From NCBI GenBank assembly GCA_017560765.1, contig JAFZEI010000028.1, positions 361-64,360 on the forward strand: 64,000 bases of DNA. The letters run 5' to 3'. Made by a program: the position numbers and the translations under genes. The stretch is from Clostridia bacterium (GTDB lineage Bacteria > Bacillota > Clostridia > UBA1212 > UBA1255). The notes beneath the pieces are model-generated. The model made no database searches. It was not told the origin of the DNA and was given only the letters and a program-made list of their open reading frames with translations. Below are positions 620 through 61,926 of this stretch, in pieces; position 1 is the first letter of the stretch, and every line of letters starts with the position of its first letter.

Positions 620-870
620 TTGTATAAAAATCTCTTAGTCGGCACTCGCAACTTGTATAAGAGTCGGCTTTAACGGCAGAAAAGTATTTCGACTCGGCGC
701 AATGAAAATCCGCCTTCTCAAGAATTTTTATTCTCAATGGCTTGTCCTTGATTTGCGGCATCAAGTAGGAATCTCATTATTTGTTGTGCGCCTCACGGCG
801 ACGGGCTCGTACAGGATTTGCACCTGTTTCCGTTTCTGCAACAGCCGTGTTAATGGTATAACATATTTTG
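620..870 (-). ncRNA. Cobalamin (B12) riboswitch in the 5' leader of the lipoprotein gene.
   Basis: The minus-strand core reads AAACGGAAACAGGTGCAAATCCTGTACGAGCCCGTCGCCGTGAGG, matching the conserved GGTGnAAnTCC...GCCCG.C.CTGTGA aptamer core. Downstream there is an AGCCAttgaGAA...GAGAAGGC segment and a weak hairpin plus U-run before the AAGGAG ribosome-binding site. Confidence 0.5.
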
Positions 871-1477: not shown

Positions 1478-1552
1478 GGCTCATTGGTCAAGAGGCTAAG
1501 ACGCCGCCCTCTCACGGCGGAAACAGGGGTTCGATTCCCCTATGAGTCACCA
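1478..1552 (+). tRNA. tRNA-Glu with anticodon CTC.
   Basis: Hand-folded cloverleaf. Acceptor stem is ggctcat/atgagtc, anticodon stem ccgcc/ggcgg with loop cTCTCac, T-arm agggg-TTCGATT-cccct, discriminator A, and encoded CCA. Confidence 0.75.
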
Positions 1553-3425: not shown

Positions 3426-3589
3426 CTTTGCTCTCCTTTCATTTTAATAGTGTGGCATTTTTCAAATTGGTTACATTGATTTATAAAAAATTTTTTTATT
3501 TATTATTCTTCATGATAATATTATTGCGGTTCGGCCTTGAAATAAAATTTTCATTATTTTAGCACAAAAACAAGAAACCATCTACAAAA

Positions 3590-3632
3590 ACCGCCGAGAG
3601 TTACAATGACAGTTACTCTCGGCGGTTTTGTT
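3590..3632 (-). terminator. Bidirectional rho-independent terminator after sigma-fusion gene B.
   Basis: ccgccgagagt-loop-actctcggcgg with flanking A and T runs. Confidence 0.6.
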
Positions 3633-3633
3633 A

Positions 3634-6600: not shown

Positions 6601-6801
6601 CTGCAGAGTATTTAGTTTCATCCAAGCTGTAACAAAAGCATCCTGAGCGGCATCCTCTGCCATAAAATGATTTTTAGTTATTTTCATTGCAGCGGATATC
6701 ACCATATTCTGATAACGAGTTACCAAAATCTCGTATGCATTTTGTTCGCCTGCAAGTGTGAGCATTACCAGCGTTTCGTCCGTTTCATTTTTATAGTACA
6801 T
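3634..6801 (-). CDS. Giant (~1055 aa) ECF-type sigma-70 factor fused to a ~870-aa cytoplasmic C-terminal extension. Referred to here as sigma-fusion B.
   Basis: sigma2 (YEILVTRYQNMV...ASWVCRIAQN) and sigma4 (LSIAEIADRMRISEGTVKWQLHDGRKRIRK) occupy the first ~200 aa. The remainder has TPR-like helical stretches (GREWYWLGYFLFREGRAEEGLAAYDKAEEI; LLEKAFEIYTKW) and two Gly/Thr/Tyr-rich beta-type modules. The likely start is the ATG after the AAGGAG ribosome-binding site (MYYKNETDE); the ORF track extends it to 6867. Confidence 0.55.
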   Translation of the reverse strand: MYYKNETDETLVMLTLAGEQNAYEILVTRYQNMVISAAMKITKNHFMAEDAAQDAFVTAWMKLNTLQDTKKYASWVCRIAQNCAINMISRYRSFLPLDVVDNLSISDYRAKNPEELYALSEERNEVDKIVGMLPQKVRQIIHLHYFEELSIAEIADRMRISEGTVKWQLHDGRKRIRKELCAMNEKYNDTLVQRVMKKVEELKLWQVKNDKCGFEKVYTKVLREVEELPECTEKQHAIADVLMRGWWWLPGEKNDALFARIANAAMEGKNEEVMCFIVDREDSKVYGGARIDFIRDKQIPRLEKAGFVKSLGREWYWLGYFLFREGRAEEGLAAYDKAEEILAKDDIYRVLVPWARKMEDVLQTRYKETVKERYLISAGAEEIRIINGKPRYWTENGFCQGFLGSIDSKSPHILRNASSCDGFFFAEVSQGETYVGSDGTKLTYISDNELVDTPSGRYEKCQLWEVRRWTDVQKIVCRTYYKDGVGIVRQDHITDGTTVTHLLSKYEIKGGSGFLPVFSGNTWEYDAMYAPDTVLSELRIDVSYADNEHIIFSYWGNTQRIDYDNNSWLDMVQKIANDYVCHNEANGRSYICDVYSAIERAEQLSVTPMEKAHTKAAASVARRILSADTTFNPDYTTTGHWNFFCREYIQKKSNSLFLTEYNSRWSFEWKCAGGMGAAEKPILYNDIFGILQDATNCIWSDEWRIGAYPIVEYTKWDRTFKTKITCENGGTVTTKAGTFDNCFKLCLDIDGMNDGWSYRGGKKVYYFAYKIGIVRTENEYCGGAKTAVYELTSYEGTGEGYMPVKDGLVRRYDAIDLTDGFVGAAEYAFVADEDGDIVVFSDLTGVRKLPPPITQYSQIQAEIVEERLWDQGKHEESRLRHDANNFHILCHFFGRPSRNWAAQGKAVAWNKYRLKMMESLGDGEVPNAWLGLYASTSFRTACALFGCGKKEEGYELLEKAFEIYTKWDSIPNGTEMDVGDPLIYGDIKVIKGKSLIKLPDDTIEPISYEHLFNETCSLMYYGLTAPYGWEWFDSVRNEDCFKEYIERAKNMIDKQ

Positions 6802-6900
6802 ATGCATCTCCTTCTTTTTATAAAATCGGAAATTTCCAATTTTTAAGCGCTTGTTTATTAGACACAAAGCACTATGAAAAGGTTGGGTGAAGTAAAAATA

Positions 6901-8547
6901 TTAATTTTGAACAATAAGTGTTGTAAGTGATTTTTTCTGTTCTTCGGTAGGAGGTTTTATCTTGCCGTTGTTAAGAAGTGTTACAATACAGTGTAGTACG
7001 AACAATCCATCAGAATGAAATACATACTGCAATTCAAATGCTTGAACTTTTCTGAGGTGTGCAGGTACAGAGTTTAGCACAGCTTCAACATAAGGAGCTT
7101 TCAGTGTATTGAAATCTTTCAAGTACTTTGCCTTTATGCGTTCACCGATAGCAAGTAGTTTATCTTGAATCTCTTTGTTTGCTAAAATGACAATCTGCCA
7201 CACGGACTCGAACTGTTCATCATATTTTCCGTTAGTTTTAACGTATCCGCGTTCTGCCAGCCACGCATATTCATCTTTTGAAAGGCGCTCCCCAAGCAAT
7301 TCTCTGTCGTACAGCGACAGAATGCGTTTTGCTTCGTCTGAATATATAAGCTTATTGCTATTTTTGTGGTCAGACCACTCACTGTCTATCTGCCAAAAGA
7401 TATGCTTATTATCACCATTCCACATAGGGCCGCACCAATTTCTCATATGAACGTAGTCGTCGGGAAGTATAATTTCCGTAGGCGCTACGGATGTGTTGTA
7501 AATATTATGTGCGCCGTCGGGACGAATTGTAGCAACTTCTTCAAACGAAATACTCTCGTCAATAAGACTCTTGCCTGAGCAAGCAGCGATATAAGGAATC
7601 AGCGACCACAGTACAAAATTACGGTCTGTATGTCCGCACAAAATATCAGTATCATCAAGAATACCTGATAATGTTAATTCATCATAAAGTTCGTTTGCAA
7701 ATAAATCAGTAACACGCTTATACATACTATTCTGTATAGTAAACAGTTCTACTGTTGGCTCGCTAATTATGAAGTTTACAATGTATTTATCATTTTGTGC
7801 CTGTAAAAAGCCGTATTCTTCAAGAACTTCTACTTCTGATTCAATGTACACGGGCGAAACGCCAAGGTCATCGGCAATCTCATTAATACCCTTTGCTTCG
7901 TCACGCACACAATAGCATATATTTTGAGCCAATGCAGAACGTAAAAACTCGTCCGGGGATTTTGTCCCGACAGAACCTGCAACGCTGTAAGAGCTGAATT
8001 TAATAGGATTAAATTTAAGTTCACTTGTTTTTCTCATAGTTTTCATACCTCTTTTCAATTCTTTTTTTGATTCAAACAAGTGCCACTTTACAGTGCCGAG
8101 GGGAATATTTAATTCTTTTGCAATATCGGATTGCTTACGGTTTTCAAAATAATACGCAATTACAATTCTGCGTTGAAGTTTTGAAAGATAAGCTATTTCG
8201 CTTTGCAAACGAATAATAGAATCAGCATCGTCGTCTTCATACGGAAAAGTGTCGGGAGCAACCGCAATTTCCGTCACATCATCAATTGGCACACCGATAA
8301 CAGCTTTGGAAGTGTCACGGTAATAATTGCTGAGAGCATTGTGGGCAATAGTCCAAATAAATTTACCAACATCACCAATGTCATCTTTAATTAACAGAGC
8401 GCGGTAAGCCTTTAGCACTATTTCCTGCGATAGATCCTCTGCATCTTCTGCATTTTTGCACCTTTTAAGAGCGAATCCAAATATAGGTTTTAAATATTCT
8501 GTTATAAATTTTTCAGCATCTTGTCTGTTCACTTGTTTGTACCTCAT
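6901..8547 (-). CDS. ECF-type sigma-70 factor fused to a ~360-aa C-terminal domain; a paralogue of sigma-fusion A. Referred to here as sigma-fusion C.
   Basis: sigma2 (EDAEDLSQEIVLKAY...FIWTIAHN) and sigma4 (QSDIAKELNIPLGTVKWHLFESKKELKRG) are present. It has the same linker (LKFNPIKF), second HTH-like segment (INEIADDLGVSPVYIESEVEVL) and DKYIVNFII motif as A (DKYITNFFI). Confidence 0.6.
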   Translation of the reverse strand: MRYKQVNRQDAEKFITEYLKPIFGFALKRCKNAEDAEDLSQEIVLKAYRALLIKDDIGDVGKFIWTIAHNALSNYYRDTSKAVIGVPIDDVTEIAVAPDTFPYEDDDADSIIRLQSEIAYLSKLQRRIVIAYYFENRKQSDIAKELNIPLGTVKWHLFESKKELKRGMKTMRKTSELKFNPIKFSSYSVAGSVGTKSPDEFLRSALAQNICYCVRDEAKGINEIADDLGVSPVYIESEVEVLEEYGFLQAQNDKYIVNFIISEPTVELFTIQNSMYKRVTDLFANELYDELTLSGILDDTDILCGHTDRNFVLWSLIPYIAACSGKSLIDESISFEEVATIRPDGAHNIYNTSVAPTEIILPDDYVHMRNWCGPMWNGDNKHIFWQIDSEWSDHKNSNKLIYSDEAKRILSLYDRELLGERLSKDEYAWLAERGYVKTNGKYDEQFESVWQIVILANKEIQDKLLAIGERIKAKYLKDFNTLKAPYVEAVLNSVPAHLRKVQAFELQYVFHSDGLFVLHCIVTLLNNGKIKPPTEEQKKSLTTLIVQN

Positions 8548-27544: not shown

Positions 27545-29776
27545 TTATTTATCTTCCCCTTTCAAGAAATATACTGTATCAAGTTGCATTCTTTTTGCTG
27601 CCGCAACAATTTCTTCTACTTTTACAGCTTTAAGCCTATCTATATATTCTGAAATATCTGTAATTCTGCCCATAATATATTGATTGAAATAATAAGACAT
27701 CATTTGTTCTTGGTTATCATTGTGCGAATATAAATCATCACAAAGCATTTTTACTGTATCCTCTATTTCTTCTTTTGAAATATCTCCCTTTTTTATTGCT
27801 TCTAATTGTTCTTTGATAAGATTAACAGTAATATCTTTATTAGCAAAATCTATACCGCATATTACCTTCATGGAACCTTTTACACGGGACAAAACCGAAT
27901 ATATATAATAAGCAAGACTATTCTTTTCTCTTACATTAACAAAAAGTTTTGACTTCTCACCTTGTCCTAAAATTGCAGAGCAAATAAAAGTTGCATAATA
28001 ATCATCAGAAAGAGGATGCGTGTTTGTCCTGTAACCTAATAACAATATGCCTTGAGTAACGTCCATTTCTTCCTCAACTGACTTTACTTCTTCCGGCTTT
28101 ATAAGCAGACGTTCAACATACGCTTCATTTATTTCGATTTTAGGTGTTTCATCAAAATATTTCTTAGCGCAATCAGTAAGTTTCTCCGGATATTCACTTC
28201 CGCTGAAAATTATTTTTACCGGAAGATTCTTTAAAAAAATATTTTTATAATAATTAAATAGTTCTGTGGAGGTGAGATTATCTCCATCCTCTACCTCTCC
28301 TGCAGTTCCAACAGAATAAGACTCATTTTCATACATTGCTTTGTTGAAACGACTAGCTGCATATCTTACTTTGTTGTTTATAATTGATTTTATGCTAATA
28401 TTTTGATTTTCTCTTTCCAATTGAAAAATTTCCTCCGAAAATCCCGTTTGTCCATTAATATCTTCTGTCAAAGGATTAAAAATAATTTCAAATAAAAAAT
28501 CAATTATTTCATTTTCTGCATCTGATGCGTCTGACAAATATTTCTTATCTGTGTATTCTGCGCGAAATTCACAAACCTGTACTTCGTCTCTACTAAAAGC
28601 ACTTCCAAAGATGTTTGAACCATATAGTTCAAGTTTTTTGCGGTTAAAACTTTTGTATGAAGAATAATTCTTTGTTGCTGATGATAATATATTTGTCATA
28701 AGGCAATTTTTGTACGCTGTTTCTCTTGAAAGATTATCACAAAACAACACCTTTATAATAGATGTTTTAAATTTATCTGTGGGAATATAAAAGATTTCCA
28801 CACCATTTCTCTCATAAACTTTTTGTATTCCTTCGCTCATTTCTTTCCTTTCTTTCAGATCACTGTTTATTTGCGCCACTAAATCCTCCACCGACGAAAA
28901 AGCTATCTCGCCACGCATTTTTTGTATAAACTCCACTTCTATATCTTGCCCGTAAAGCTCACCTTCAAAACCTATTAAGTACGTTTCTACTGTAATTCTT
29001 TTAATTTCTTTAAAGGTAGGGTTATCACCAATATTAGTAATACTCCTGTATACTTTGTCTCCTATATGTGTTACCGTGGCGTATACGCCAAATTCCGGCA
29101 AGGCAAAACCGTCCTGTGGCACAATATTCGCCGTTGGGAAACCTAATTTCTTACCCACTTTTCTGCCGCATTGTACTTTACCGGGGATAAAATAGTTTCG
29201 ACCTGTCAGAACTTTGTAATCTATCATATTTCCGTTACGAATCAATTCTCTTAATACGGTACTTGATACTGTCACTTCTTTTTTCTCTCTTGGCAAGAAA
29301 CTTTTTATTTGCGGTATTACAATTACATCAAAACCATATTCTTCGCCTTTCTTTTTAAGTTCTTGAACATTCCCCTTCCCAAATTGTCCGTAAGAATAAT
29401 CAAAGCCTACTACAACTAACTTAACACCCAATTTTTCTATTAAAATATTTTTAATAAAATCATCGGGAGTGGTGGATGCATAATTTTCATCAAAATGCTC
29501 AAGAAAAAGCTCATCTATGCCAAGTTCTTCTGATATTTTGATTTTTTGTTCTGCTGTCATAATAACAGGTGTATGCTTGTCCTTAAAAATTACGTTATTG
29601 GGATGATTTTCAAATGTATAAACACACGCCTTAATATTCCTGTTTCTGCATTCTTTTACCAATGTTTGAATCAATTGAGAATGACCTTTGTGAATACCGT
29701 CAAAATTCCCCAAAGCGACACCGCGGGGAATTTTGCTGTCTTTTTTATTATCAAATTGGTTTTTGAAGATTTTCAT
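27545..29776 (-). CDS. ribF: Bifunctional riboflavin kinase/FAD synthetase (RibF) fused in frame to an M16-family non-catalytic peptidase-like domain.
   Basis: The first ~345 aa are RibF (GNFDGIHKGHSQLI FAD-synthetase motif; riboflavin-kinase PTANI...E motifs). The following ~430 aa resemble the inactive partner of M16 pairs. There is no stop between them. Confidence 0.65.
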   Translation of the reverse strand: MKIFKNQFDNKKDSKIPRGVALGNFDGIHKGHSQLIQTLVKECRNRNIKACVYTFENHPNNVIFKDKHTPVIMTAEQKIKISEELGIDELFLEHFDENYASTTPDDFIKNILIEKLGVKLVVVGFDYSYGQFGKGNVQELKKKGEEYGFDVIVIPQIKSFLPREKKEVTVSSTVLRELIRNGNMIDYKVLTGRNYFIPGKVQCGRKVGKKLGFPTANIVPQDGFALPEFGVYATVTHIGDKVYRSITNIGDNPTFKEIKRITVETYLIGFEGELYGQDIEVEFIQKMRGEIAFSSVEDLVAQINSDLKERKEMSEGIQKVYERNGVEIFYIPTDKFKTSIIKVLFCDNLSRETAYKNCLMTNILSSATKNYSSYKSFNRKKLELYGSNIFGSAFSRDEVQVCEFRAEYTDKKYLSDASDAENEIIDFLFEIIFNPLTEDINGQTGFSEEIFQLERENQNISIKSIINNKVRYAASRFNKAMYENESYSVGTAGEVEDGDNLTSTELFNYYKNIFLKNLPVKIIFSGSEYPEKLTDCAKKYFDETPKIEINEAYVERLLIKPEEVKSVEEEMDVTQGILLLGYRTNTHPLSDDYYATFICSAILGQGEKSKLFVNVREKNSLAYYIYSVLSRVKGSMKVICGIDFANKDITVNLIKEQLEAIKKGDISKEEIEDTVKMLCDDLYSHNDNQEQMMSYYFNQYIMGRITDISEYIDRLKAVKVEEIVAAAKRMQLDTVYFLKGEDK

Positions 29777-31949
29777 TATATTTTTTTCTCCCGTTACAAT
29801 TATTCTGCGTGCAAAATCCACATGAACGGCAGTCTTTACAGTTTGGCTTAAAAGATTTAATAATACATCCCATAGCAAAAATAATAATCAAGGCTGCCAA
29901 TATATACGGGAAATATTTCCCTGTTTTATTTACAAGTATTGCAAACATATATGCTATCAAGGTTTGATATGTTGCACTTCCCAAAGCCCATTTCCAGCCT
30001 CCAAGTTCCCTTTTCATTGCAGAAAAAGCCGCTACGCAAGGCATATACAATAAAACAAATACCAAAAAGGCATACGCCGAAGCAGGTGTTGCAAAAGTTT
30101 CCGACAAAATTGCGGCTGCCTCTGTACCGGCCGTTGCCGGAATTCCGTAGAAAAGGCAAATCGAAGAAACAACTGCTTCTTTAGCAACGAGACCGCTCAA
30201 CAAGGAAACTGCAGCTTGCCACGTACCAAATCCGGCCGGTTTGAAAACGGGTGCTATAAACCCACCGATAATTCCAAGCATGCTTTCCCTGCCTTCTTGC
30301 GTGAAGCGCAATGCAAAATCAAAACTTTGCAAAAACCAAAGCAAAACACTCATGCCAAATATTAGTGTGGCGGCCTTTTTTATAAAATGCTCTATTTTAT
30401 CCCAAACGTGCCTGACAGTACTGTTTAATCCCGGCAGTCTATATGGAGGTAACTCTAAAAGAAATGATGTTTTCTGTTTCTTGAAGAGAATATTTTTAAA
30501 TAAAATTCCGGATAATATACCGCAGATTATTCCCAGGATATAAAGAATGAGAACAAGAAGACCTCTATAGCAAGGGAAAAAAATCTGCGATATAAATCCG
30601 TATATAGGAAGCTTTGCGGAACATGACATAAAAGGGACGAGTAATACTGTCATTCTTCTGTTTTTTAAGCTTTCTGTTGTTCTGGCAGCCATAACAGCCG
30701 GAACAGAACATCCGAAGCCCATCAACAATGGAATAAAAGCTTTACCTGACAGGCCAAACTTACTTAACAATCTATCCATGATAAACGCAATTCTTGCCAT
30801 ATAGCCACTGTCTTCAAGTAGCGAGAGTAGACAGAACAGTATGGCAATTTGCGGCAGGAATGTAAGTACGCCGCCTACACCGCCTATTACACCATCGACC
30901 ACAAGACTTTCTACCCAATTAGGAGTATTAAACGATATTAGCAAATTTGAAACAAATCCCGCCAACAAATCTCCTACTATGTACGAAACACCTTTTTGAA
31001 GGAATGCCCCAACAGTAGAAAAAGTAATCGTAAATACTGTGAACATTATTAAAATAAATATCGGGATGGCCAAATATTTATTTGTAACAATATCGTCGAT
31101 TCTCTGTGTAACCGTTTTTTTATTCTTTTTTTCTTTGGAGACAGATGCTTTAACAGCCTTTTCTATATATCGGTATCGGCTGTCAATCACCATGCTTTCT
31201 CTGTCACCTTTTTCATTTGAACCTTCATATTCTTCAGCGAGTCTTTCTATTCTGTCAGAGTCTGCTTTTGAAAGCTGAAGTTTCTTTTGGAGAAGCATGT
31301 CTCCCTCTAATATTTTAATCGAAACCCAGTGAGTTGGCAAGCATTGTTTTTTTGCATATGGATTTAATATAATATCCATTTTTCTTTGAATCGCACGAGT
31401 GAAGTTATCGTAAACTTTCTCAGGTTCCAAAAAAGCACCTTTTTGTGCCTGCCTTATGGCTTCTTTTATAACGTCTTGTACTCCTTCGCCTGTTTTTGCA
31501 GTGATGGGTACAATAGGTACGTTAAAAAATTTTGATAAAAGACTTACGTTTATTTTATCGCCTCTTGCATTTACCTCATCCATCATGTTCAAAGCAATAA
31601 CAACGGGTCTTTCCATTTCCAGGAGTTGAATACTCAAATAAAGATTGCGTTCAATATTCGTAGCATCTACAATATTTATTACAACATCAGGCGTCTCTTT
31701 AACAATATAATCTGCTGCAACAATTTCCTCCAATGAGTATGGTGATAAGGAATAAATCCCGGGTAGGTCAACCAATGTAATATTATAGTCACGTTCTATT
31801 GATTGCTTGACCTTTCCCTCTTTCTTTTCTACAGTAACTCCCGGTCTGTTCCCTACGTATTGATTGCTGCCTGTCAAATAATTAAAGAAAGTAGTCTTTC
31901 CACTGTTAGGATTACCTACTAAAGCCATTTTGAGATTTTTCGACTCCAT
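29751..31949 (-). CDS. feoB: Ferrous iron transporter FeoB.
   Basis: N-terminal G-domain (GNPNSGKTT, DLPG) plus a polytopic permease domain and a Cys-rich tail. No feoA ORF is adjacent. Confidence 0.9.
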   Translation of the reverse strand: MESKNLKMALVGNPNSGKTTFFNYLTGSNQYVGNRPGVTVEKKEGKVKQSIERDYNITLVDLPGIYSLSPYSLEEIVAADYIVKETPDVVINIVDATNIERNLYLSIQLLEMERPVVIALNMMDEVNARGDKINVSLLSKFFNVPIVPITAKTGEGVQDVIKEAIRQAQKGAFLEPEKVYDNFTRAIQRKMDIILNPYAKKQCLPTHWVSIKILEGDMLLQKKLQLSKADSDRIERLAEEYEGSNEKGDRESMVIDSRYRYIEKAVKASVSKEKKNKKTVTQRIDDIVTNKYLAIPIFILIMFTVFTITFSTVGAFLQKGVSYIVGDLLAGFVSNLLISFNTPNWVESLVVDGVIGGVGGVLTFLPQIAILFCLLSLLEDSGYMARIAFIMDRLLSKFGLSGKAFIPLLMGFGCSVPAVMAARTTESLKNRRMTVLLVPFMSCSAKLPIYGFISQIFFPCYRGLLVLILYILGIICGILSGILFKNILFKKQKTSFLLELPPYRLPGLNSTVRHVWDKIEHFIKKAATLIFGMSVLLWFLQSFDFALRFTQEGRESMLGIIGGFIAPVFKPAGFGTWQAAVSLLSGLVAKEAVVSSICLFYGIPATAGTEAAAILSETFATPASAYAFLVFVLLYMPCVAAFSAMKRELGGWKWALGSATYQTLIAYMFAILVNKTGKYFPYILAALIIIFAMGCIIKSFKPNCKDCRSCGFCTQNNCNGRKKYNENLQKPI

Positions 31950-35393: not shown

Positions 35394-37148
35394 TTAGCAA
35401 AATTTTAAAATATCTTCGATTTCTCTTACAATCACTATGTATGCGTTATCATCAATCATTCTCATGGATTTAATCATTTTATCTTCGGGAATAGAAATAC
35501 AACCTGCGGAATATAGCGCTCCCGGTCTTGTACAGTGCAAAAAAATAGCTGAGCCCTTACCTTTCACTGTTGGATTAACATTATAATTAATCATTGCTGC
35601 ATAATTATATGAATACTTATAATCTATTAAATGCTCAGAAGCACTACTGTTCCAAGATGATGGCATTTCACTGCCTCTAACATATTGATTATATGTATCT
35701 GAATATCTGTCTCCGTCCCAATAATCGTCTTCATCTACTTTTTTATAAAATTTTTTTAATTCTCCCGGATTATCTTTAATGCCAAAAAGCATTCCAAAAG
35801 AATAAACTCCCTCAGGAGTAGTTCCGTTACCCTCTACACGATTTACCGGATCTTTCACACCACTTCGGCCGACATATCCGTCTGTATTAAAAACCTGTTT
35901 CCATTCACCATCACTTTTATTAAATGCATAAAAATCACATGCTGTCGTCCCTCCGGCTCTTTGCACCGTTAAAAAAAGTGTGTTTGCTTTTTCAGCAATG
36001 TTTAATTTGGAAATAACAGAGGAATAATCACCGCTGTATTTTGCTGCTTTTATTTCTTCGATACCTGACATTTTATACCAATCTCCCGGCTCACTATATT
36101 TTAAATTAACTTTTAAAATCATTTCTTCGTCTACTTTTTGCTGTATATATGCCTCTTTTACAGCACTTTTAACAGATTCTGAATTATCCCAAGTAAAATA
36201 TCCCTCGCACATTACCACATAAGCGTTTTCGTCGTCATGAATAACAGTTTTAGAATTAACTGCATTGCTGTTTTTGCTTAACGTCTCTGCAAATTCGTAG
36301 AACAAACTATTTGTTTCGCTCATATATATCGTTATTTGACCATTTGACGAGCCTTCGCTTTGTTTATCAGATTCTCCGCCAATTATATTGAGCATTTCTT
36401 CTACAGTATTTAATCTTCCACACAATTTCTCTGCTTCTCGAGTTATTGATTGATTTGAAGATGAAGAACCGCCCGGATTTAATTTATAAGAAATATACCT
36501 TAAGACTGCAAAATCATAGGCTGTCTTATTTTTATCATAAAAATTCTTTATTTCCGATTGCTGTAAATCATCTGAAACATATTTGTCAACAAGGTCATTA
36601 CGACACTTTTCAACCATTGACTCACACAACCTTATCTTATTATATTCTTTAAAAGATATCCCAAATAGCTCTTTTGAAATATCATCTAAAGTTTCTTCAC
36701 AAGACAATCCAAGAGTATAATATTGCATTTTTAAGTAATTCTCAGCGTTTTTTTCAATTTCTGCCTTTTCTGCTGTATCAAGAAAATAATCACTGTTTAT
36801 TGAGAAAAGTAACATTTTCTTAAGCTCTGTTGCTTTTATGAAAGCAGACTCCTTATTGGCATTTTTATAAAATTGATAGACACACTCATATGCATAAACA
36901 TTACTTAAAAAGTCACCGAAAAGCTGCATATTTTCATCATAATGTTCGCCCTTTTGCGCCGGAGACGGCAAAGACGATTCTAACCCTGAAATCGAACTGT
37001 TTGAACTGTTTGTTGCAGGCGGAATATTTTGTTTTTGACAACCCGGCAAGCAAAAAAGAAAGCACAACACCAAAATCATCACCAAAGATGCGACACGCAA
37101 AATCCTATTCTTCACAAATATACCCCCGTTTTTAAGCTTAATAATCAA
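35394..37148 (-). CDS. Lipoprotein with a C-terminal L,D-transpeptidase (YkuD-like) domain.
   Basis: Signal peptide with LPGC lipobox. The C-terminal catalytic motif is AIFLHC...SAGCISIP. Confidence 0.55.
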   Translation of the reverse strand: MIIKLKNGGIFVKNRILRVASLVMILVLCFLFCLPGCQKQNIPPATNSSNSSISGLESSLPSPAQKGEHYDENMQLFGDFLSNVYAYECVYQFYKNANKESAFIKATELKKMLLFSINSDYFLDTAEKAEIEKNAENYLKMQYYTLGLSCEETLDDISKELFGISFKEYNKIRLCESMVEKCRNDLVDKYVSDDLQQSEIKNFYDKNKTAYDFAVLRYISYKLNPGGSSSSNQSITREAEKLCGRLNTVEEMLNIIGGESDKQSEGSSNGQITIYMSETNSLFYEFAETLSKNSNAVNSKTVIHDDENAYVVMCEGYFTWDNSESVKSAVKEAYIQQKVDEEMILKVNLKYSEPGDWYKMSGIEEIKAAKYSGDYSSVISKLNIAEKANTLFLTVQRAGGTTACDFYAFNKSDGEWKQVFNTDGYVGRSGVKDPVNRVEGNGTTPEGVYSFGMLFGIKDNPGELKKFYKKVDEDDYWDGDRYSDTYNQYVRGSEMPSSWNSSASEHLIDYKYSYNYAAMINYNVNPTVKGKGSAIFLHCTRPGALYSAGCISIPEDKMIKSMRMIDDNAYIVIVREIEDILKFC

Positions 37149-37977
37149 ACACAGAGAATTTTAAATTATGCATTATATTCCCAACAACACTATTATATCT
37201 TGTAAAAGCAGAATTGGTACCTTCAACAAAAATTACATAATATGCCATTGCACGAGAAGCAACATACATTTCTCCTGACATTTTAATGTCATTCTGAATG
37301 TATGTGTAAGGAAGAATGCAGTATTCAACAGAATTACCCTTATGCATTTTTGCCTCGGCATATTTGTATTCTGTTTTTTCAAGCTCTGCATTCTCGTGGC
37401 TTTTCTTAAAATTGTCAAATAAATATTCTGATAAATCAGCCAAACTTACCGGAGCGGAATGTTTGTCTGTTACGGCTGTTCCCGTTGCAACTGCTGCGTT
37501 TTCCGTATCGGAAATTTTCGATGCAGCTATTTTATCTGCTATATCTGCGTACTCTTTATAGTAAATCTTCAACGTCAAGTCAGGATTCCTCTCCATTCCG
37601 GCTCTCGGATCTGCTGTAGCAGAAGAAGTACTTTCAGAAACGGTAGGAGAAGGCGTGTTAGTCGATACACTGCCTGTTGCCGACGGAGTACTCGTGATTT
37701 TTTTCAGCGGAAACAACTCAAGCACAAGGCCTTCTTCATCCATAAAAAAGCCATAAGGATCAGCACTTACATCCCAATCATCAGGATAGAAGACGCGAAA
37801 GAAATATCTTGATGCATTATACATAGACTCGTACGGTTTAAACTCTTCTTCTTTGTTTTCTTCTTCAATTTTGAAGAAACTTATAAAAGACACAACCAAC
37901 ACAACTGCCATAACAGCAGCAATCAAAAGTATAATTTTTTTCTTTTTTTGTATCCATAAGTTTTGTTTTGAACTCAT
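37138..37977 (-). CDS. Membrane-anchored protein with a Ser/Thr-rich linker, hypothetical.
   Basis: A single N-terminal transmembrane helix followed by a TSTPSATGSVSTNTPSPTVSESTSSAT low-complexity linker. It overlaps the downstream L,D-transpeptidase gene by 11 nt. Confidence 0.4.
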   Translation of the reverse strand: MSSKQNLWIQKKKKIILLIAAVMAVVLVVSFISFFKIEEENKEEEFKPYESMYNASRYFFRVFYPDDWDVSADPYGFFMDEEGLVLELFPLKKITSTPSATGSVSTNTPSPTVSESTSSATADPRAGMERNPDLTLKIYYKEYADIADKIAASKISDTENAAVATGTAVTDKHSAPVSLADLSEYLFDNFKKSHENAELEKTEYKYAEAKMHKGNSVEYCILPYTYIQNDIKMSGEMYVASRAMAYYVIFVEGTNSAFTRYNSVVGNIMHNLKFSVFDY

Positions 37978-38047
37978 ATTTTTTCTCCGCTTTTGTGTTT
38001 TACAGATATAACTTAGCACGACTTTTTCAAAAAATCAATTTAATTAA

Positions 38048-53257: not shown

Positions 53258-53333
53258 TGGTGATCCATCGGAGACTCGAACTCCGGACACCCTGATTAAA
53301 AGCCAGGTGCTCTACCGACTGAGCTAATGGATC
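53258..53333 (-). tRNA. tRNA-Lys with anticodon TTT.
   Basis: The reverse-complement folds as a cloverleaf: acceptor gatccat/atggatc, D-arm gctcagtcggtagagc, anticodon loop cTTTTaa, T-arm cggag-TTCGAGT-ctccg, and an encoded CCA. Confidence 0.75.
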
Positions 53334-57807: not shown

Positions 57808-58878
57808 TTATCCGTTTCCCTGCGCAAGCTTTTCTGCTCTCTCATTTGTAATCAAAGCCTCAACTATTTCATCAATATCTCCGTCAAGAATAGGCTCTAA
57901 CCTATACAAAGTGAGATTGATTCTATGATCAGTCACGCGGTTTTGAGGATAATTATACGTCCTGATTTTTTCGCTTCTATCTCCTGAGCCTACTTGATTT
58001 TTTCTCGTTTCTGCTACTGAATTATCTCTTTCAGCCTTTTGCATTTCATATAATTTTGAACGAAGCACCTTAAAAGCTCTTTCTTTGTTTTTAAGCTGCG
58101 AACGTTCATCCTGACACGTAACAACAATTCCTGTAGGCTTATGGATTAATCGAATGGCAGATTCCGTTTTATTAACGTGCTGTCCTCCTGCTCCGCCCGA
58201 GCGGCAAGTTTCTATTTCTACGTCGCTTAAATTAAGTTCTACGTCAACGTCCTCCACCTCAGGAAGTACGGCAACCGTTGCCGCCGAAGTGTGTATTCTG
58301 CCTCCTGACTCCGTAACAGGAACACGCTGAACTCTGTGGGCGCCGCTTTCGAATTTCAGCTTGCTGTAAGCACCGTTACCCACCACCGTAAATGTACATT
58401 CCTTGATGCCGCCGATTTCCGTCTCGTTAAAGTCGATAATTTCAATTCGCCAGCCCATGCGCTCTGCATATTTTGAATACATTCTGAAAAGCACCGCGCC
58501 GAAAAGCGCCGCTTCTTCTCCTCCTGTGCCGCTTCGTATCTCCACGATAACATTCTTGCTGTCATTAGGGTCTTTGGGGATAAGCATTATTTTGAGTTTT
58601 TCTTCCAATTGGGCAATTTCTTCTGTTTTGTTATGAAATTCCTCTTTTACCAGCTCTCGAAATTCTTCTTCAAGCTGTCCGGAAAGCATTTCTTTTGCCT
58701 CTTCCCGTTCTTTTACTGCTTCTTTATATGCTCTGTAGACCGTCACAAGCTCTTCTAATTCGGAATGCTCTGTGGCCGTCTTTCTGTAAGCCTGAGAATC
58801 ACCTAAAACCTCAGGGTCTGTTAATTTTTGTGTAAGCTCGTCAAATCTGTATTCGGCTGCTTGTAATTTATCTATCAT
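57808..58878 (-). CDS. prfA: Peptide chain release factor 1.
   Basis: GGQ motif ([17 protein letters not shown]) and PxT-region conservation. Confidence 0.95.
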
Positions 58879-59471
58879 AGTTCTTTTCTGTTCTCCAAAG
58901 CTCTTGCTATTGTAACCTCATCCACATATTCCAAGTCGCCGCCTACCGGCACACCGTGGGCAATTCGTGTAACCTTAACTCCTAATGGTTTTAACAATCT
59001 GGCTATATACATTGCAGTAGCCTCACCTTCCACATTCGGATTTGTCGCTACTATTATCTCGCTAACGGTATCATCAATTCTCGCCAGAAGCTCTTTGATG
59101 CGGATTTCATCAGGCCCTATGCCGTTTATCGGAGATATGACGCCATGTAAAACATGATATCGTCCTGAGAAAACCTTTGACCTTTCCATTGCCATAACAT
59201 CTCTGGGGTCCTCTACAACACATATTTTCCCGTTGTCACGTGCCGGATTACCGCAAATATCGCAGATATCTTTGTCTGACATATTTTGGCAAATTTGACA
59301 ATATTTCAGCTCTTTTCTTGCAGTTTTAATTGCCTCCGCAAATTCTTCCGCTTCTTCTTGTGTTCTGCCGAGAATATAAAAAGCCATTCTTTGTGCAGAT
59401 TTATGTCCTATACCGGGCAGTTTCTCGAATTGCTCTATTAACTTTGTAACCGATGCTCCGTATACACTCAT
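58875..59471 (-). CDS. recR: Recombination protein RecR.
   Basis: HhH motif, C4 zinc finger (CQICQN...CDICGN) and Toprim domain. Confidence 0.95.
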
Positions 59472-59472
59472 T

Positions 59473-59811
59473 TTATATTCCCATTGTATATTTGCCCATT
59501 ACAGCTTGTGTTTCTTCTTCAATTGCATCAACGCACTCATTGATTGCTGCCACAATAAGGTCTTGAAGCATTTCAACATCCTCAGGGTCAACAACCTCAG
59601 GTTTGATTTCCAGTGATTGAAGTTTCTTCTCACCTGTCATAGTAACCTTTACTGCACCGCCTCCGGAAGTCGTCTCAAATACTTTTTCGGAAATTGCAGC
59701 TTGCTCCTTCTCCATTTCTCTTTGCATTTGTTGTGCCTGCTGCATCAGACGCTGCATATTATTTCCGCCGCCGTTTTTTGCTCCAAATCCGCCTCTGAAT
59801 CCTTTTGCCAT
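59473..59811 (-). CDS. ybaB: Nucleoid-associated protein YbaB/EbfC.
   Basis: [20 protein letters not shown] signature. The start is the ATG after the AAAGGA ribosome-binding site; the ORF track extends it to 59856. Confidence 0.85.
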
Positions 59812-59907
59812 TTTTCTCAATTCCTTTCGATATATAATAATAAACTTAATCAACAAAGTTATACTTATTTATTTTACCACAAAGTATTTTATTTTTCATT
59901 ATAAACT

Positions 59908-60158
59908 TTTCGTCCCAAACAGCCCCCGTAACGGACGAAAAACCACTTCTACGAGAGGCTTGAGCCGTTGCAAAGCACTTTTTCGTCCTAAACAGCCCCC
60001 GTAACGGACGAAAAACCACTTCTACGAGAGGCTTGAGCCGTTGCAAAGCACTTTTTCGTCCTAAACAGCCCCAAAACGGACGAAAAACCACTTCTACGAG
60101 AGGCTTGAGTCGTTGCAAAGCTCTTTTTCGTCCTAAACAGCCCCAAAACGGACGAAAA
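59908..60158. repeat. Tandem direct repeat, ~73-bp unit, 3.45 copies (three full units plus a 33-nt partial copy).
   Basis: Units start at 59908, 59981, 60054 and 60126. Each is a 33-nt hairpin-capable element (tttcgtccTAAACAGCCCC(CGT)AACggacgaaaa) plus an identical 40-nt segment (accacttctacgagaggcttgagccgttgcaaagcactt). The only differences are 2-3 point changes and one 1-nt indel. Confidence 0.9.
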
Positions 60159-60201
60159 TCTGCCGGCGAAAGCCAACTGCACACCACGCTTTTACTTTTT
60201 A

Positions 60202-60230
60202 TTGAAAAAAACTCCCCGGTCATTTATAAT
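60202..60230 (+). promoter_or_regulatory. Sigma-70 promoter (TTGAAA-17-TATAAT) for the downstream GH-like gene.
   Basis: TTGAAA at 60202-60207 and TATAAT at 60225-60230, with a GAGGAG ribosome-binding site before the ATG at 60274. Confidence 0.55.
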
Positions 60231-60273
60231 ACAGGCAAAGTAAAACACGAATATTAAGAGGAGAAGTAATACC

Positions 60274-61926
60274 ATGATATTAAAAACACTTAATTCTTTA
60301 GCAAAAATATATGCAGACAGAGAGCTTGACGATAGATTTATCCAAAACGAAGGTTGTATGTTACAAAACGAAGCCTTTTCTTTTCAAGTTGCTTTTAAAT
60401 TAGAAGAAAATTCAGATCCGGCAAAAGCAGCGTTCGGTTTCAGCGTTGACATTCCGGAGGAGCTTAAGCCTTACACAAAGGTAAAAGCTATTGATTATGT
60501 TCCGTGCGATTATACGTTATATCCTCGTTGTCTCGGTTTAAGCGATCACCCCGAACAGGGACTTTTCCCAGATATTTTAAGAAGCATACCACCTGTTTTT
60601 TGGGCTTCCACTAATTCTTGGCGCGGTGTATACATTACGATTGATGCACAAAATGCCTGTCTCAAACCGGGAATTTATACAATAAAAACAATATTCAAAT
60701 ATAAAGGCGAATACACAAAAGAATTCCGTATAGAAGTTCTTGACGCAATGTTACCTCCGCAAAGCATACCTGTAACCAATTGGTTTCACACCGACTGTTT
60801 ATGTAATTATTACCATGTAGAATTCGACAGCAAAGAATACTGGCGTATTACGGAAAATTTTGCAAAAACTGCCGTTCACTACGGCATTAACATGTTGCTT
60901 ATGCCGATTTTCACACCGCCACTCGATACAGCCGTTGGTGCCGAGAGAAGAACAATTCAGTTAATAGATGTTTTTAAAGATGGAGATACATATACTTTTG
61001 ATTTTAAAAAGCTCCGCAAATGGGTAAAAATGTGTAAGCGTGTCGGCGTTAAATATTACGAGGTTTCACATTTATTTACACAATGGGGATGCAAATATGC
61101 GCCAAAAGTTATGGCAACCGAAAACGGCGAATACAAACGTATTTTCGGTTGGGAAACAAACGGTCACGGAGAGGAGTATCTCGATTTCTTGTCACAACTT
61201 TTACCGGTGCTTATTGCCGAGCTGAAAAAACTTGGCATTTTCAAAAAGTGTTACTTCCATGTTTCGGATGAGCCTACCGGCGAAATGAAAGAAGACTACG
61301 GTATATGCTCGAAGTTCTTGCGGGAATTTATTTCCTCAGACAGAATAATCGACGCTTTGAGTGATATTTCTTTCTACAAGGAAGGACTTATCTCTTGTCC
61401 GGTAGTAGGTCTTGACCATGTGCATACTTTTGTCGAGGAAAAAGTTCCCACTATATGGGGGTACTATTGTTGCGGGCACGACATGACAAGCAACAGGTTT
61501 TTGGCACTTCCTGCAGGACAAAACAGGATGCTCGGTCTTCAGCTTTACAAATTTAACATTAAGGGATTTTTACAATGGGGATATAACTTCTATAACTCCC
61601 ATTTATCTTTAGAAGAAATTGATCCTTACGCTACTTCTACAGCCGGCGGTTGGGTTCCCGGAGGAGATGCTTATATTGTTTATCCCGGAGCAGACGGCAA
61701 CGCCGTTGTTTCCATACGTCTCGAAGTTTTCAGGGAAGCTCTTCAAGATATGAGAGCATTAGAAGCTCTTGAGAGCAAATTTGCAGCAAAAGTCGGTAAA
61801 AGAAAAGCCCACAAAGCAGTTATTGCAGCTCTGGGGCTTGAAGATATGACATTTCTTAAATTTAACAATGACGGCAAATATCTTGTAGAATTAAGAGAAA
61901 AAATCAACAGATTACTCGTCGAATAA
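60274..61926 (+). CDS. Putative intracellular glycoside hydrolase-like protein (DUF4091/GH123-like); assignment tentative.
   Basis: 550 aa with no signal peptide. General resemblance to DUF4091-containing GH-like proteins (W/Y-rich; WGYNFYNS; GWVPGGDAYIVYPG). Not verified. Confidence 0.3.
   Translation: MILKTLNSLAKIYADRELDDRFIQNEGCMLQNEAFSFQVAFKLEENSDPAKAAFGFSVDIPEELKPYTKVKAIDYVPCDYTLYPRCLGLSDHPEQGLFPDILRSIPPVFWASTNSWRGVYITIDAQNACLKPGIYTIKTIFKYKGEYTKEFRIEVLDAMLPPQSIPVTNWFHTDCLCNYYHVEFDSKEYWRITENFAKTAVHYGINMLLMPIFTPPLDTAVGAERRTIQLIDVFKDGDTYTFDFKKLRKWVKMCKRVGVKYYEVSHLFTQWGCKYAPKVMATENGEYKRIFGWETNGHGEEYLDFLSQLLPVLIAELKKLGIFKKCYFHVSDEPTGEMKEDYGICSKFLREFISSDRIIDALSDISFYKEGLISCPVVGLDHVHTFVEEKVPTIWGYYCCGHDMTSNRFLALPAGQNRMLGLQLYKFNIKGFLQWGYNFYNSHLSLEEIDPYATSTAGGWVPGGDAYIVYPGADGNAVVSIRLEVFREALQDMRALEALESKFAAKVGKRKAHKAVIAALGLEDMTFLKFNNDGKYLVELREKINRLLVE

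What the first reader, a model, noticed from the sequence alone, without database searches (positions are those of the whole stretch)
59908..60158. Array of ~73-bp tandem repeats with an embedded hairpin, at the position where dnaX normally precedes ybaB-recR
Three near-identical 72-73-bp units plus a 33-nt partial copy. Each unit is a 33-nt hairpin-capable element (tttcgtcc-N17-ggacgaaaa) followed by an identical 40-nt segment. The array lies in the divergent region between the ybaB-recR operon and a +strand gene that has its own TTGAAA-17-TATAAT promoter. It is not CRISPR-like, because the would-be spacers are identical. It could be an array of protein-binding sites, a repeated small-RNA or attenuator element, or a recent slippage expansion. 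It generates spurious ORFs with repeated peptide sequence on both strands.
Basis: seen in the sequence. Interest (0 to 1): 0.55.

Follow-up and report, generated by a model that had tools for sequence, protein, structure and literature searches.

The report
Strain-variable hairpin tandem repeat between promoters
The repeat is real: it is a 73-bp minisatellite whose copy number differs between strains of an uncultured gut Clostridium, it grew out of a small DNA palindrome that related species keep as a single copy between two back-to-back promoters, and it is a fairly ordinary kind of bacterial repeat rather than a CRISPR array, an RNA gene or a dispersed repeat family.

Summary
Window 59907-60158 holds 3.5 copies of a 72-73-bp unit: four 34-37-nt hairpin elements separated by three 40-nt segments.

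- **Not an assembly artefact.** The longest exact internal repeat is 83 nt, shorter than the k=141 in the contig names. The same array occurs in two independent assemblies.
- **A real copy-number polymorphism.** Among contigs that encode the identical YbaB or RecR protein, the same locus carries 1, 2, 3, 4 or at least 5 hairpins, always in steps of 72-73 bp.
- **An older single-copy origin.** Sister species (RecR 87-91% identical, Candidatus Egerieisoma-like) have one hairpin of the same design at the same place, between the divergent GH123 and ybaB-recR promoters. Their stem sequences differ but stay complementary.
- **What it is not.** The array lies upstream of both promoters, matches no Rfam family, has no cas genes nearby and has segments that are copies of one another. 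No copy was found elsewhere in the window, in 185,579 reference genomes, or in phage or plasmid collections.

Best reading: a locus-specific minisatellite made by slippage or unequal recombination between hairpin copies, probably close to neutral. A role as a copy-number-tunable DNA element is not excluded. It is a new member of a known kind and of modest interest.

The parts
59907..60158 (.). Tandem array: 3.5 copies of a 72-73-bp unit (hairpin, then three repeats of 40-nt segment plus hairpin).
   Evidence: TRF gives period 73, 3.5 copies, 96% matches, score 441. Repeat families D1 and D2.
59907..59941 (.). Hairpin 1, nearest to ybaB: TTTTCGTCC-N17-GGACGAAAA.
   Evidence: The DNA fold of this hairpin type is about -7.6 kcal/mol, z = -3.4.
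59942..59978 (.). Segment 1. It is 40 nt when measured between the TTTCGTCC...GGACGAAA cores. No significant structure.
   Evidence: Fold z-scores are about 0 on both strands.
59979..60015 (.). Hairpin 2: TTTTTCGTCC-N17-GGACGAAAAA.
   Evidence: (I4).
60016..60051 (.). Segment 2, identical to segment 1.
60052..60087 (.). Hairpin 3: TTTTTCGTCC-N16-GGACGAAAAA, with the loop variant CCCCAAAAC.
   Evidence: (I6).
60088..60124 (.). Segment 3, with 2 substitutions relative to segments 1 and 2.
60125..60158 (.). Hairpin 4, nearest to GH123: TTTTCGTCC-N16-GGACGAAAA.
59871..59899 (-). Predicted ybaB-recR promoter, ATGAAA-17-TGgTAAAAT. Its -35 hexamer starts 8 nt from hairpin 1 and it points away from the array.
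   Evidence: The same promoter is conserved in sister species and in the DUF4097 allele.
60202..60230 (+). Predicted GH123 promoter, TTGAAA-17-TATAAT. It lies 43 nt from hairpin 4 and points away from the array.
   Evidence: 11 of 12 matches. Sister species have TTGCAA-17-TATAAT at the equivalent place.
60162..60177 (-). Small hairpin GTTGGC-TTTC-GCCGGC between the array and the GH123 promoter. It is kept, with an occasional point change, in all array-type alleles. Function unknown.
59473..59811 (-). ybaB (YbaB/EbfC nucleoid-associated protein), first gene of the ybaB-recR-prfA-sua5 gene string.
   Evidence: Pfam PF02575, E = 2.5e-31. Called genes.
58875..59471 (-). recR.
   Evidence: Pfam RecR domains.
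60274..61926 (+). GH123-family glycoside hydrolase gene, transcribed divergently from ybaB.
   Evidence: Pfam PF13320, E = 8e-103.
59846..60223 (-). Spurious 125-aa ORF created by the repeats. It is not a gene.
   Evidence: It matches only itself among 5.8 billion proteins. The 73-nt unit is not a multiple of 3, so alleles with other copy numbers shift the frame.

Best explanation
The array is a locus-specific bacterial minisatellite (a variable-number tandem repeat). Its anatomy is LF-H-(S-H)n-RF, where H is a 34-37-nt palindromic hairpin element (T4-5-CGTCC, a 16-17-nt loop, GGACG-A4-5), S is a 40-nt unstructured segment, and LF and RF are the left and right flanks.

**Shown:**
- n is 3 in the window. 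In other strains of the same species n is 0, 1, 2, 3 or at least 4, on otherwise near-identical flanks.
- Sister species carry exactly one hairpin of the same design at the same place, midway between the back-to-back GH123 and ybaB-recR promoters.

**Inferred:**
- The single palindrome is ancestral.
- In this one species an S-H unit arose. The origin of S is unknown.
- Copy number now rises and falls by slipped-strand mispairing or unequal recombination between the hairpin copies. The palindromes favour slippage.
- The array is not transcribed from either main promoter and encodes nothing.
- Each promoter keeps the same neighbouring hairpin at a fixed distance whatever the copy number. Copy-number change therefore alters only the distance between the two promoters (about 84 to over 300 bp between the -35 hexamers) and the number of palindromes. 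This is probably why it is tolerated and close to neutral.
For: **Real tandem array.**

**Population polymorphism in steps of 72-73 bp.**
- The GH123-ybaB intergenic region is 243-245, 316-317, 388-389 or 462 bp long, and 616 bp in one scaffold that carries an N gap inside the array.
- These lengths correspond to 1, 2, 3, 4 and at least 5 hairpins.
- There are 12 distinct alleles among the 17 array-bearing contigs examined, all of which encode the identical YbaB or RecR protein.

**Alleles behave as recombination products of one another.** The three-hairpin allele L004 carries segments S1 and S2. L094 has only S1 and L002 has only S2, all on nearly the same flanks.

**Not an artefact.** The longest exact internal repeat is 83 nt, below k=141. 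The array is identical in independent assemblies.

**Sister species have one hairpin at the same position.**
- Fourteen loci were examined (L102, L109-L118, L122-L124). All have a 197-209-bp intergenic region with a single hairpin.
- Types B and D are perfect 16-bp-arm palindromes. They differ at two arm positions, and both changes are matched on the other arm.
- The window type has a 2-nt insertion (GT and AC) in both arms.

**Promoters flank the array and point outwards.** They are conserved across species.

**No RNA, CRISPR, dispersed-repeat or coding signature.**
- No Rfam family.
- The segment is not structured.
- No cas gene was found: 44 of the window's 49 ORFs of at least 150 aa were scanned (the other five are internal overlapping ORFs), along with ybaB and the cupin ORF.
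- No other copy in the window, in 185,579 representative genomes or in phage and plasmid records.
- The only hit in the metagenome collection is this same locus.
- The ORF over the array is an orphan.

**Published precedent.** The Wolbachia intergenic repeats VNTR-105 and VNTR-141 have periods containing 23-bp hairpins with 9-bp stems. Their authors propose that the hairpins trigger slippage (PMC3287509).
Against: - Copy numbers come from short-read metagenome assemblies. These can collapse identical units, and one allele (L098) is broken by a scaffold gap. The exact distribution, and any variation within a sample, is therefore uncertain.
- The hairpin's outer stem is intact in all 20 hairpin variants but one, and it stays complementary across four species-level lineages. 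That argues the palindrome is not junk, so extra copies may not be neutral.
- The unit length is close to 7 helical turns, and the T5 and A5 tracts fall roughly in helical phase (spacings of 32 and 41 bp). This would suit a DNA-level function.
- The origin of the 40-nt segment is unexplained. Its similarity to flanks in sister species is not above shuffled controls.
- The complete genome of this organism was not available, so the absence of dispersed copies rests on 64 kb plus one metagenome assembly and reference genomes of other species.
- There are no expression data.
Confidence: 0.65

Rival explanations
1. The array is a copy-number-tunable DNA regulatory module. The palindrome is a functional DNA element shared by the two divergent promoters. 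It could be an operator for a dimeric regulator or a nucleoid protein (YbaB itself is a candidate), phased A/T-tract curved DNA acting like an UP element, or a cruciform that absorbs the negative supercoils made by divergent transcription. Changing the number of copies would then tune expression of ybaB-recR and/or GH123 between strains.
For: - The hairpin holds its position and its design (T5, GC-rich arm, loop, arm, A5) in four lineages. Arm changes are matched on both sides.
- The outer TTTTTC...GAAAAA is invariant across the lineages.
- The A-tract lies 8-31 nt upstream of the ybaB -35 hexamer.
- The unit is about 7 helical turns long, and the A/T tracts are spaced 32 and 41 bp apart, roughly in phase.
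- From my own knowledge, not tested here: phased A-tracts upstream of the Clostridium perfringens plc promoter stimulate transcription, and divergent transcription favours cruciform extrusion.
Against: - An allele in the same population replaces the whole intergenic region with a DUF4097 gene and has no hairpin, so the element is dispensable.
- Matched arm changes can also arise mechanically, by template switching within quasi-palindromes, without selection (my own knowledge).
- In the window species the inner stem has decayed to a 16-17-nt loop, which is poor for cruciform extrusion (-7.6 kcal/mol against -17 for the sister-species palindrome).
- The half-site centres are about 2.5 turns apart, which is unusual for a dimeric operator.
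- No regulator gene lies next to the locus.
- Each promoter sees the same proximal hairpin whatever the copy number.
Confidence: 0.2
2. The array is a set of transcribed RNA elements. It would be part of a long 5' leader, or a set of repeated small RNAs or attenuator hairpins, acting on ybaB-recR or GH123 expression.
For: - The whole array folds more stably than shuffled sequence on both strands (z = -4.2 and -3.5).
- A weak plus-strand promoter-like site at 59814-59841 (9 of 12 matches) could in principle read through the array towards GH123.
- One sister-species hairpin (type C) contains a G-T apposition that would be a G-U pair only in ybaB-sense RNA.
Against: - Any tandem array of palindromes gives excess folding energy.
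- Both strong, conserved promoters lie outside the array and point away from it.
- In sister species the 197-209-bp intergenic region leaves no room for another promoter.
- The hairpin has a U-run before the stem and an A-run after it on both strands, the opposite of the AAAA-stem-TTTT terminators elsewhere in the window.
- There is no Rfam match even at E <= 10.
- The 40-nt segment has no structure and no compensatory variation.
Confidence: 0.08
3. The array is a degenerate or orphan CRISPR-like array, with 34-37-nt palindromic repeats and 40-nt spacers.
For: The geometry resembles CRISPR: repeats of 34-37 nt separated by spacers of about 36-40 nt, a period of 72-73 nt, and a palindromic repeat.
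Against: - All the 'spacers', within an array and across 12 alleles, are variants of one sequence that differ by 0-11 substitutions, with no indels. They arose by duplication, not by acquisition.
- No cas gene was found in the 64-kb window.
- The 'spacer' does not match viral contigs, phages or plasmids.
- The repeat exists as a single copy with no spacer in some strains and in sister species.
Confidence: 0.02
4. The array is an assembly artefact, with the tandem repeat wrongly expanded or collapsed.
For: - The sequences come from short-read metagenome assemblies.
- One related scaffold (L098) has a run of N inside the array.
Against: - The longest exact internal repeat is 83 nt, below k=141.
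- The array is identical in independent samples and pipelines.
- Alleles form an ordered series (1, 2, 3, 4 hairpins) with allele-specific point variants.
Confidence: 0.03

Closest known systems
Wolbachia intergenic repeats VNTR-105 and VNTR-141 (PMC3287509)
   Same: - They are locus-specific intergenic tandem repeats with long periods (105 and 141 bp).
- Each period contains a short palindromic hairpin with a 9-bp stem.
- Copy number differs between very closely related strains.
- The hairpins are thought to promote slipped-strand mispairing.
- No product is known.
   Different: - The phylum differs, and so do the unit length and sequence.
- Here the hairpin can be traced to a single-copy palindrome kept at the same inter-promoter position in sister species.
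- Here the array sits exactly between two divergent core promoters.
Mycobacterial interspersed repetitive units (MIRU-VNTR) and other repeat loci used for strain typing (my own knowledge)
   Same: - They are minisatellites with 40-100-bp units in intergenic regions of housekeeping operons.
- Copy number is polymorphic between strains.
   Different: - MIRUs are a dispersed family with about 40 loci per genome, and some carry small ORFs that overlap neighbouring genes.
- This unit was found at one locus only.
CRISPR arrays
   Same: The geometry is similar: palindromic repeats of about 35 nt alternate with intervening segments of about 36-40 nt.
   Different: - The intervening segments are copies of each other.
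- There are no cas genes in the window.
- There are no matches to mobile elements.
REP/BIME-type palindromic intergenic elements (my own knowledge)
   Same: Both are imperfect palindromes of about 35 nt in intergenic DNA that can occur in clusters.
   Different: - REP elements are dispersed in hundreds of copies and usually lie at the 3' ends of genes.
- This element is single-locus and lies between two promoters.
Bidirectional intrinsic terminators
   Same: Both have a GC-containing stem flanked by complementary A and T runs.
   Different: - The orientation is inverted. Here the order is T-run, stem, A-run on both strands.
- The genuine terminators in this window are A-run, stem, T-run.
- This element also sits upstream of both genes, not downstream.

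Membership tests
Bacterial minisatellite / VNTR | Head-to-tail tandem copies of a unit of tens of bases. | tested here: met
   Period 73, 3.5 copies, 96% matches.
Bacterial minisatellite / VNTR | Copy number varies between strains at the same locus, with conserved flanks. | tested here: met
   There are 1, 2, 3, 4 and at least 5 hairpins across 12 distinct alleles. The step is 72-73 bp and the flanks are near-identical.
Bacterial minisatellite / VNTR | Copy-number change happens by slippage or unequal recombination. | not testable with these tools
   This is inferred from alleles that look like deletion or recombination products of each other. Rates would need culture or long-read data.
CRISPR array | Repeats are separated by unique spacers unrelated to one another. 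| tested here: not met
   The three segments in the window differ at 0-2 positions. All 8 segment variants across alleles are 40 nt long and are variants of one sequence.
CRISPR array | cas genes lie in the neighbourhood. | tested here: not met
   Pfam scans covered 44 of the window's 49 ORFs of at least 150 aa (the other five are internal overlapping ORFs), plus ybaB and the cupin ORF. They show housekeeping genes only. A cas locus elsewhere in the genome could not be checked.
CRISPR array | Spacers match phages or plasmids. | tested here: not met
   There were no hits in viral contigs, phage records or plasmid records.
Dispersed intergenic repeat family (REP/BIME, MIRU, MITE-like) | Many copies are scattered over the genome. 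| tested here: not met
   - No other copy in the 64-kb window.
- No hits in 185,579 representative genomes.
- One hit in the metagenome collection, which is the same locus.
- Limit: the complete genome of this organism was not available, and the 20-nt pattern had to match exactly.
Intrinsic (Rho-independent) terminator | A GC-rich stem-loop is followed directly by a U-tract in the transcript. | tested here: not met
   The T-run precedes the stem and the A-run follows it on both strands. The terminator scan does not call the hairpins.
Known RNA family (Rfam 15) | A covariance-model match at or above the gathering score. | tested here: not met
   There is nothing in the region at gathering thresholds. 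At E <= 10 there are only chance-level hits, with E of at least 3.3.
Protein-coding repeat | An ORF is conserved in relatives and the unit length keeps the reading frame. | tested here: not met
   The 125-aa ORF matches only itself in 5.8 billion proteins. The 73-nt unit shifts the frame between alleles.
Operator or iteron array (repeated protein-binding sites) | A specific protein binds each repeat. | not testable with these tools
   Conserved arm complementarity and position are compatible with this but not specific to it. No cognate regulator was identified.

The most novel reading that the evidence does not exclude
The palindrome between the GH123 and ybaB-recR promoters could be a functional DNA element maintained across the Egerieisoma-like clade. 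It might be a site for a nucleoid protein such as YbaB itself, or a supercoil-absorbing or curved-DNA module shared by two back-to-back promoters. Its amplification into a strain-variable array would then act as a heritable, reversible 'tuning knob' that sets expression of a recombination-repair operon differently in different strains.
Probability: 0.12. Interest if true: 0.5.

Novelty: new member of a known kind. Interest (0 to 1): 0.27.

Why it matters
- **Strain marker.** The locus is a ready-made, high-resolution marker for an uncultured gut Clostridium lineage related to Candidatus Egerieisoma. It shows at least five size classes in public metagenomes.
- **A view of how such repeats start.** It is a clean natural example of a minisatellite growing from a pre-existing palindrome, with the single-copy ancestor-like state still visible in sister species.
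- **A caution for annotation.** Gene callers have already placed an orphan 125-aa 'protein' over the array.
- **If the palindrome proves functional.** It would point to a small, lineage-specific DNA element shared by divergent promoters, and to copy-number variation as a way of tuning ybaB-recR expression. Nothing here shows that yet.

Tried and rejected
- **Known RNA families.** Rfam at gathering thresholds and at E <= 10 gave no credible match.
- **CRISPR reading.** I searched for the 'spacer' and the repeat in viral contigs, phages and plasmids and found nothing. A Pfam survey of the window's ORFs found no cas genes.
- **Dispersed family.**
  - Searches with up to 3 mismatches in the window found no other copy.
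  - An exact-pattern scan of 185,579 genomes gave 0 hits.
  - An exact-pattern scan of the metagenome collection returned only this locus.
  - A short-word blastn against 80 relatives' loci and the rest of the window gave only 12-mers at chance level.
- **Orphan ORF as a probe.** I used the 125-aa ORF to look for other arrays in the protein database. It found only itself.
- **Origin of the 40-nt segment.** Local alignment to the flanks of single-hairpin alleles and of sister species gave scores within the shuffled controls. The best case was reached by 22 of 500 shuffles. An apparent TTGCAA...CTCAA resemblance was dropped.
- **Cross-species alignment of the intergenic regions.** MAFFT placed the sister-species hairpin against the window's GH123 -35 region instead of its hairpin. 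A direct alignment of the hairpins was out of register for pair counting. Homology of the hairpins therefore rests on position, design and the shared TGGGGCT...TTTAGG...GAAAAA stretch, not on a formal covariation statistic.
- **A general ybaB-upstream hairpin in Clostridia.** A scan of 80 more distant loci found no recurring T-run, stem, A-run hairpin.
- **Spo0A-box and CodY-box resemblances of the arms.** I considered these by eye and dropped them, because the sister-species arms lack the motif.
- **GTnAC (EbfC site) in loops 1-2.** The motif is a 4-base pattern that is absent from loops 3-4, so it is not informative.
- **Relatives in the genome collection.** Closer relatives came from the protein search and the contig look-ups instead.

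Full report
**1. What is there**

Tandem Repeats Finder reports one outstanding array in the window: 59907-60158, period 73, 3.5 copies, 96% matches, score 441. Reading the sequence and the repeat and pattern searches gives the anatomy.

- There are four hairpin elements of the form T4-5-CGTCC, a 16-17-nt loop, GGACG-A4-5. They lie at 59907-59941, 59979-60015, 60052-60087 and 60125-60158.
- Three 40-nt segments separate them. Segments 1 and 2 are identical. Segment 3 has two substitutions.
- Loops 1-2 carry CCCCCGTAAC and loops 3-4 carry CCCCAAAAC.
- None of these patterns occurs in shuffled sequence or anywhere else in the 64 kb.

**2. Context**

- The array lies between ybaB (59473-59811, minus strand; followed by recR, prfA, sua5 and a low-molecular-weight phosphatase gene) and a divergent GH123 glycoside hydrolase gene (60274-61926).
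- A promoter-like site for GH123 lies at 60202-60230 (TTGAAA-17-TATAAT). One for ybaB lies at 59899-59871 (ATGAAA-17-TGgTAAAAT). Both lie outside the array and point away from it.
- The rest of the window is ordinary chromosome: tRNA synthetases, sigA and dnaG, fusA, clpB, spoIVA, yqfD and others. There are no cas genes.

**3. Not an artefact**

The longest exact internal repeat is 83 nt. That is shorter than the k=141 in the contig names, so the path through the array is unique. The array is base-for-base identical in contigs from two other samples. Each of those contigs differs from the window at a different single position elsewhere.

**4. The key result: a population polymorphism**

I looked up contigs that encode exactly the window's RecR or YbaB protein. 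They show the same locus with GH123-ybaB intergenic lengths of 243-245, 316-317, 388-389 and 462 bp, plus one 616-bp scaffold with a run of N inside the array. These correspond to 1, 2, 3, 4 and at least 5 hairpins.

Among the 17 array-bearing contigs there are 12 distinct alleles:

| Hairpins | Distinct alleles |
|---|---|
| 1 | 4 |
| 2 | 3 |
| 3 | 3 |
| 4 | 1 |
| at least 5 | 1 |

- The 40-nt segment is always exactly 40 nt long. It occurs as 8 point-variant forms.
- Alleles look like recombination products of each other. L004 has segments S1 and S2, L094 has only S1, and L002 has only S2.
- The single-hairpin alleles contain no segment at all.

This is the behaviour of a minisatellite or VNTR.

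**5. Not dispersed, and not from a mobile element**

- A 20-nt pattern covering half of the hairpin has no match in one representative genome for each of 185,579 species.
- It has a single match in the metagenome collection, which is this same locus.
- The hairpin and the segment have no match in viral contigs, phage records or plasmid records.
- They have no match in 80 relatives' loci or in the rest of the window.
- The 125-aa ORF that the repeats create was called as a gene in one assembly but matches only itself among 5.8 billion proteins.

**6. Where the hairpin comes from**

RecR homologues at 86-91% identity include one named Candidatus Egerieisoma faecipullorum, from a chicken-gut study (GTDB genus UMGS1537, family UBA1255). 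Their contigs keep the same gene order, with GH123 divergent from ybaB-recR-prfA-sua5. The intergenic region is 197-209 bp. All 14 loci examined have exactly one hairpin, midway between the two conserved promoters.

Four sequence types exist:

| Type | Source | Sequence |
|---|---|---|
| A | window species | TTTTTCGTCC-GTTTTGGGGCTGTTTA-GGACGAAAAA |
| B | L102, L122, L123 | TTTTTCCCTGAGGCCC-A-GGGCCTCAGGGAAAAA |
| C | Egerieisoma type | TTTTTCCCTGAGCCCTGGGGCGTAAGGGAAAAA |
| D | L124 | TTTTTCCCTAAAGCCC-TG-GGGCTTTAGGGAAAAA |

- B and D are perfect 16-bp-arm palindromes. They differ at two arm positions, and both changes are matched on the partner arm.
- C is a partly decayed version.
- A shares TGGGGCT..TTTAGG..GAAAAA with D. 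It has a 2-nt insertion in both arms (GT and AC) and has lost pairing in the inner stem, which is now the 16-17-nt loop.
- All types have the T-run before the stem and the A-run after it on both strands. That is the reverse of the AAAA-stem-TTTT terminators elsewhere in the window.
- More distant Clostridia show no such hairpin upstream of ybaB.

The hairpin is therefore an older, clade-specific, single-copy palindrome. Only the window species has amplified it.

MAFFT alignments across species were not reliable enough for a formal covariation count. Matched arm changes can also come from template switching within quasi-palindromes, without selection (my own knowledge).

**7. How it most likely works**

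Shown:
- A tandem array.
- Polymorphic copy number.
- A single-copy counterpart in sister species.
- Promoters that lie outside the array and point outwards.
- No RNA-family, coding, CRISPR or dispersed-repeat signature.

Inferred:
- Copy number changes by slipped-strand mispairing or unequal recombination between hairpin copies. This is the mechanism proposed for the hairpin-containing Wolbachia repeats VNTR-105 and VNTR-141 (PMC3287509).
- Each promoter keeps the same adjacent hairpin at a fixed distance in every allele: 8 nt from the ybaB -35 hexamer and 43 nt from the GH123 -35 hexamer. Copy-number change therefore alters only the inter-promoter distance (about 84 to over 300 bp between the -35 hexamers) and the number of palindromes. 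This probably explains why it is tolerated.

The origin of the 40-nt segment is unresolved.

**8. Rivals**

- **A tunable DNA regulatory module** (protein sites, phased A/T-tract curvature, or a cruciform between divergent promoters).
  - It remains possible because the palindrome is conserved, the unit is about 7 helical turns long, and the A/T tracts are spaced 32 and 41 bp apart.
  - Against it, an allele in the same population replaces the whole intergenic region with a DUF4097 gene and has no hairpin.
  - Also against it, the window-type hairpin is a weak cruciform candidate (-7.6 kcal/mol against -17 for type B).
- **An RNA role** is disfavoured by the promoter geometry, the absence of Rfam hits and the unstructured segment.
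- **CRISPR** fails on its defining feature of unique spacers.
- **An assembly artefact** is excluded for this allele.

**9. Verdict**

The finding is real and well described. It is a locus-specific, strain-variable minisatellite that grew from a conserved inter-promoter palindrome in an uncultured gut Clostridium. That makes it a new member of a known kind, not a new kind of system. It is useful as a strain marker and as an example of how minisatellites begin. Its interest is modest unless the palindrome proves to be functional.

Noticed in passing
window about 60470-61720 (GH123 gene); L002, L004 and L009 compared with L003: The GH123 gene next to the array is hypervariable between strains. 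Nucleotide identity is 74-90% across the central 1.25 kb of the gene, while the flanking DNA (the AMP-binding gene and ybaB to spoIVA) is mostly 95-100% identical. This suggests divergent GH123 alleles exchanged by recombination, or diversifying selection.
   Followed up: partly
L001 2726-3660; also L007, L096 and L105-L108: Some contigs with the identical YbaB and RecR proteins have the whole GH123-ybaB intergenic region replaced by a 235-aa DUF4097 gene, with no hairpin or repeat. The ybaB promoter (GTGAAA-17-TGgTACAAT) is retained.
   Followed up: partly
window 59812-60273 compared with L011-L090: dnaX lies upstream of ybaB on the same strand in 74 of 80 more distant Clostridia. It is missing from the window and from all Egerieisoma-like loci, where a GH123 gene is divergent instead. 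The clade therefore has a rearrangement breakpoint exactly where the palindrome sits.
   Followed up: partly
window 1803-8547, minus strand: Three consecutive large ORFs (540, 1077 and 548 aa) each begin with ECF-type sigma-70 region 2 and region 4 domains, followed by long uncharacterised C-terminal parts.
   Followed up: no
window 684-831 (minus strand); 1478-1549 (plus strand); 53261-53333 (minus strand): A cobalamin riboswitch match (37.3 bits, covering model positions 47-167 of 189) and two tRNA genes.
   Followed up: no
window 35394-38019, minus strand: Two adjacent ORFs (584 and 293 aa) between dnaG and argS have no Pfam match at E <= 1e-5.
   Followed up: no
window 27545-29878, minus strand: A 777-aa ORF joins RibF domains (FAD synthetase plus riboflavin kinase) to a peptidase M16 C-terminal domain. 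It is either a gene fusion or an artefact of the mechanical ORF start.
   Followed up: no
window 60162-60177, minus strand: A small hairpin, GTTGGC-TTTC-GCCGGC, is followed by AGATTTTCG and lies between the array and the GH123 promoter. The scan calls it terminator-like, and it is kept, with an occasional point change, in all array-type alleles. Its function is unknown.
   Followed up: no
L098 (ERZ28633377 scaffold_15), intergenic region: The longest allele seen has at least 5 hairpins but is interrupted by a scaffold gap of N inside the array. Short-read assemblies therefore probably under-report long alleles.
   Followed up: no
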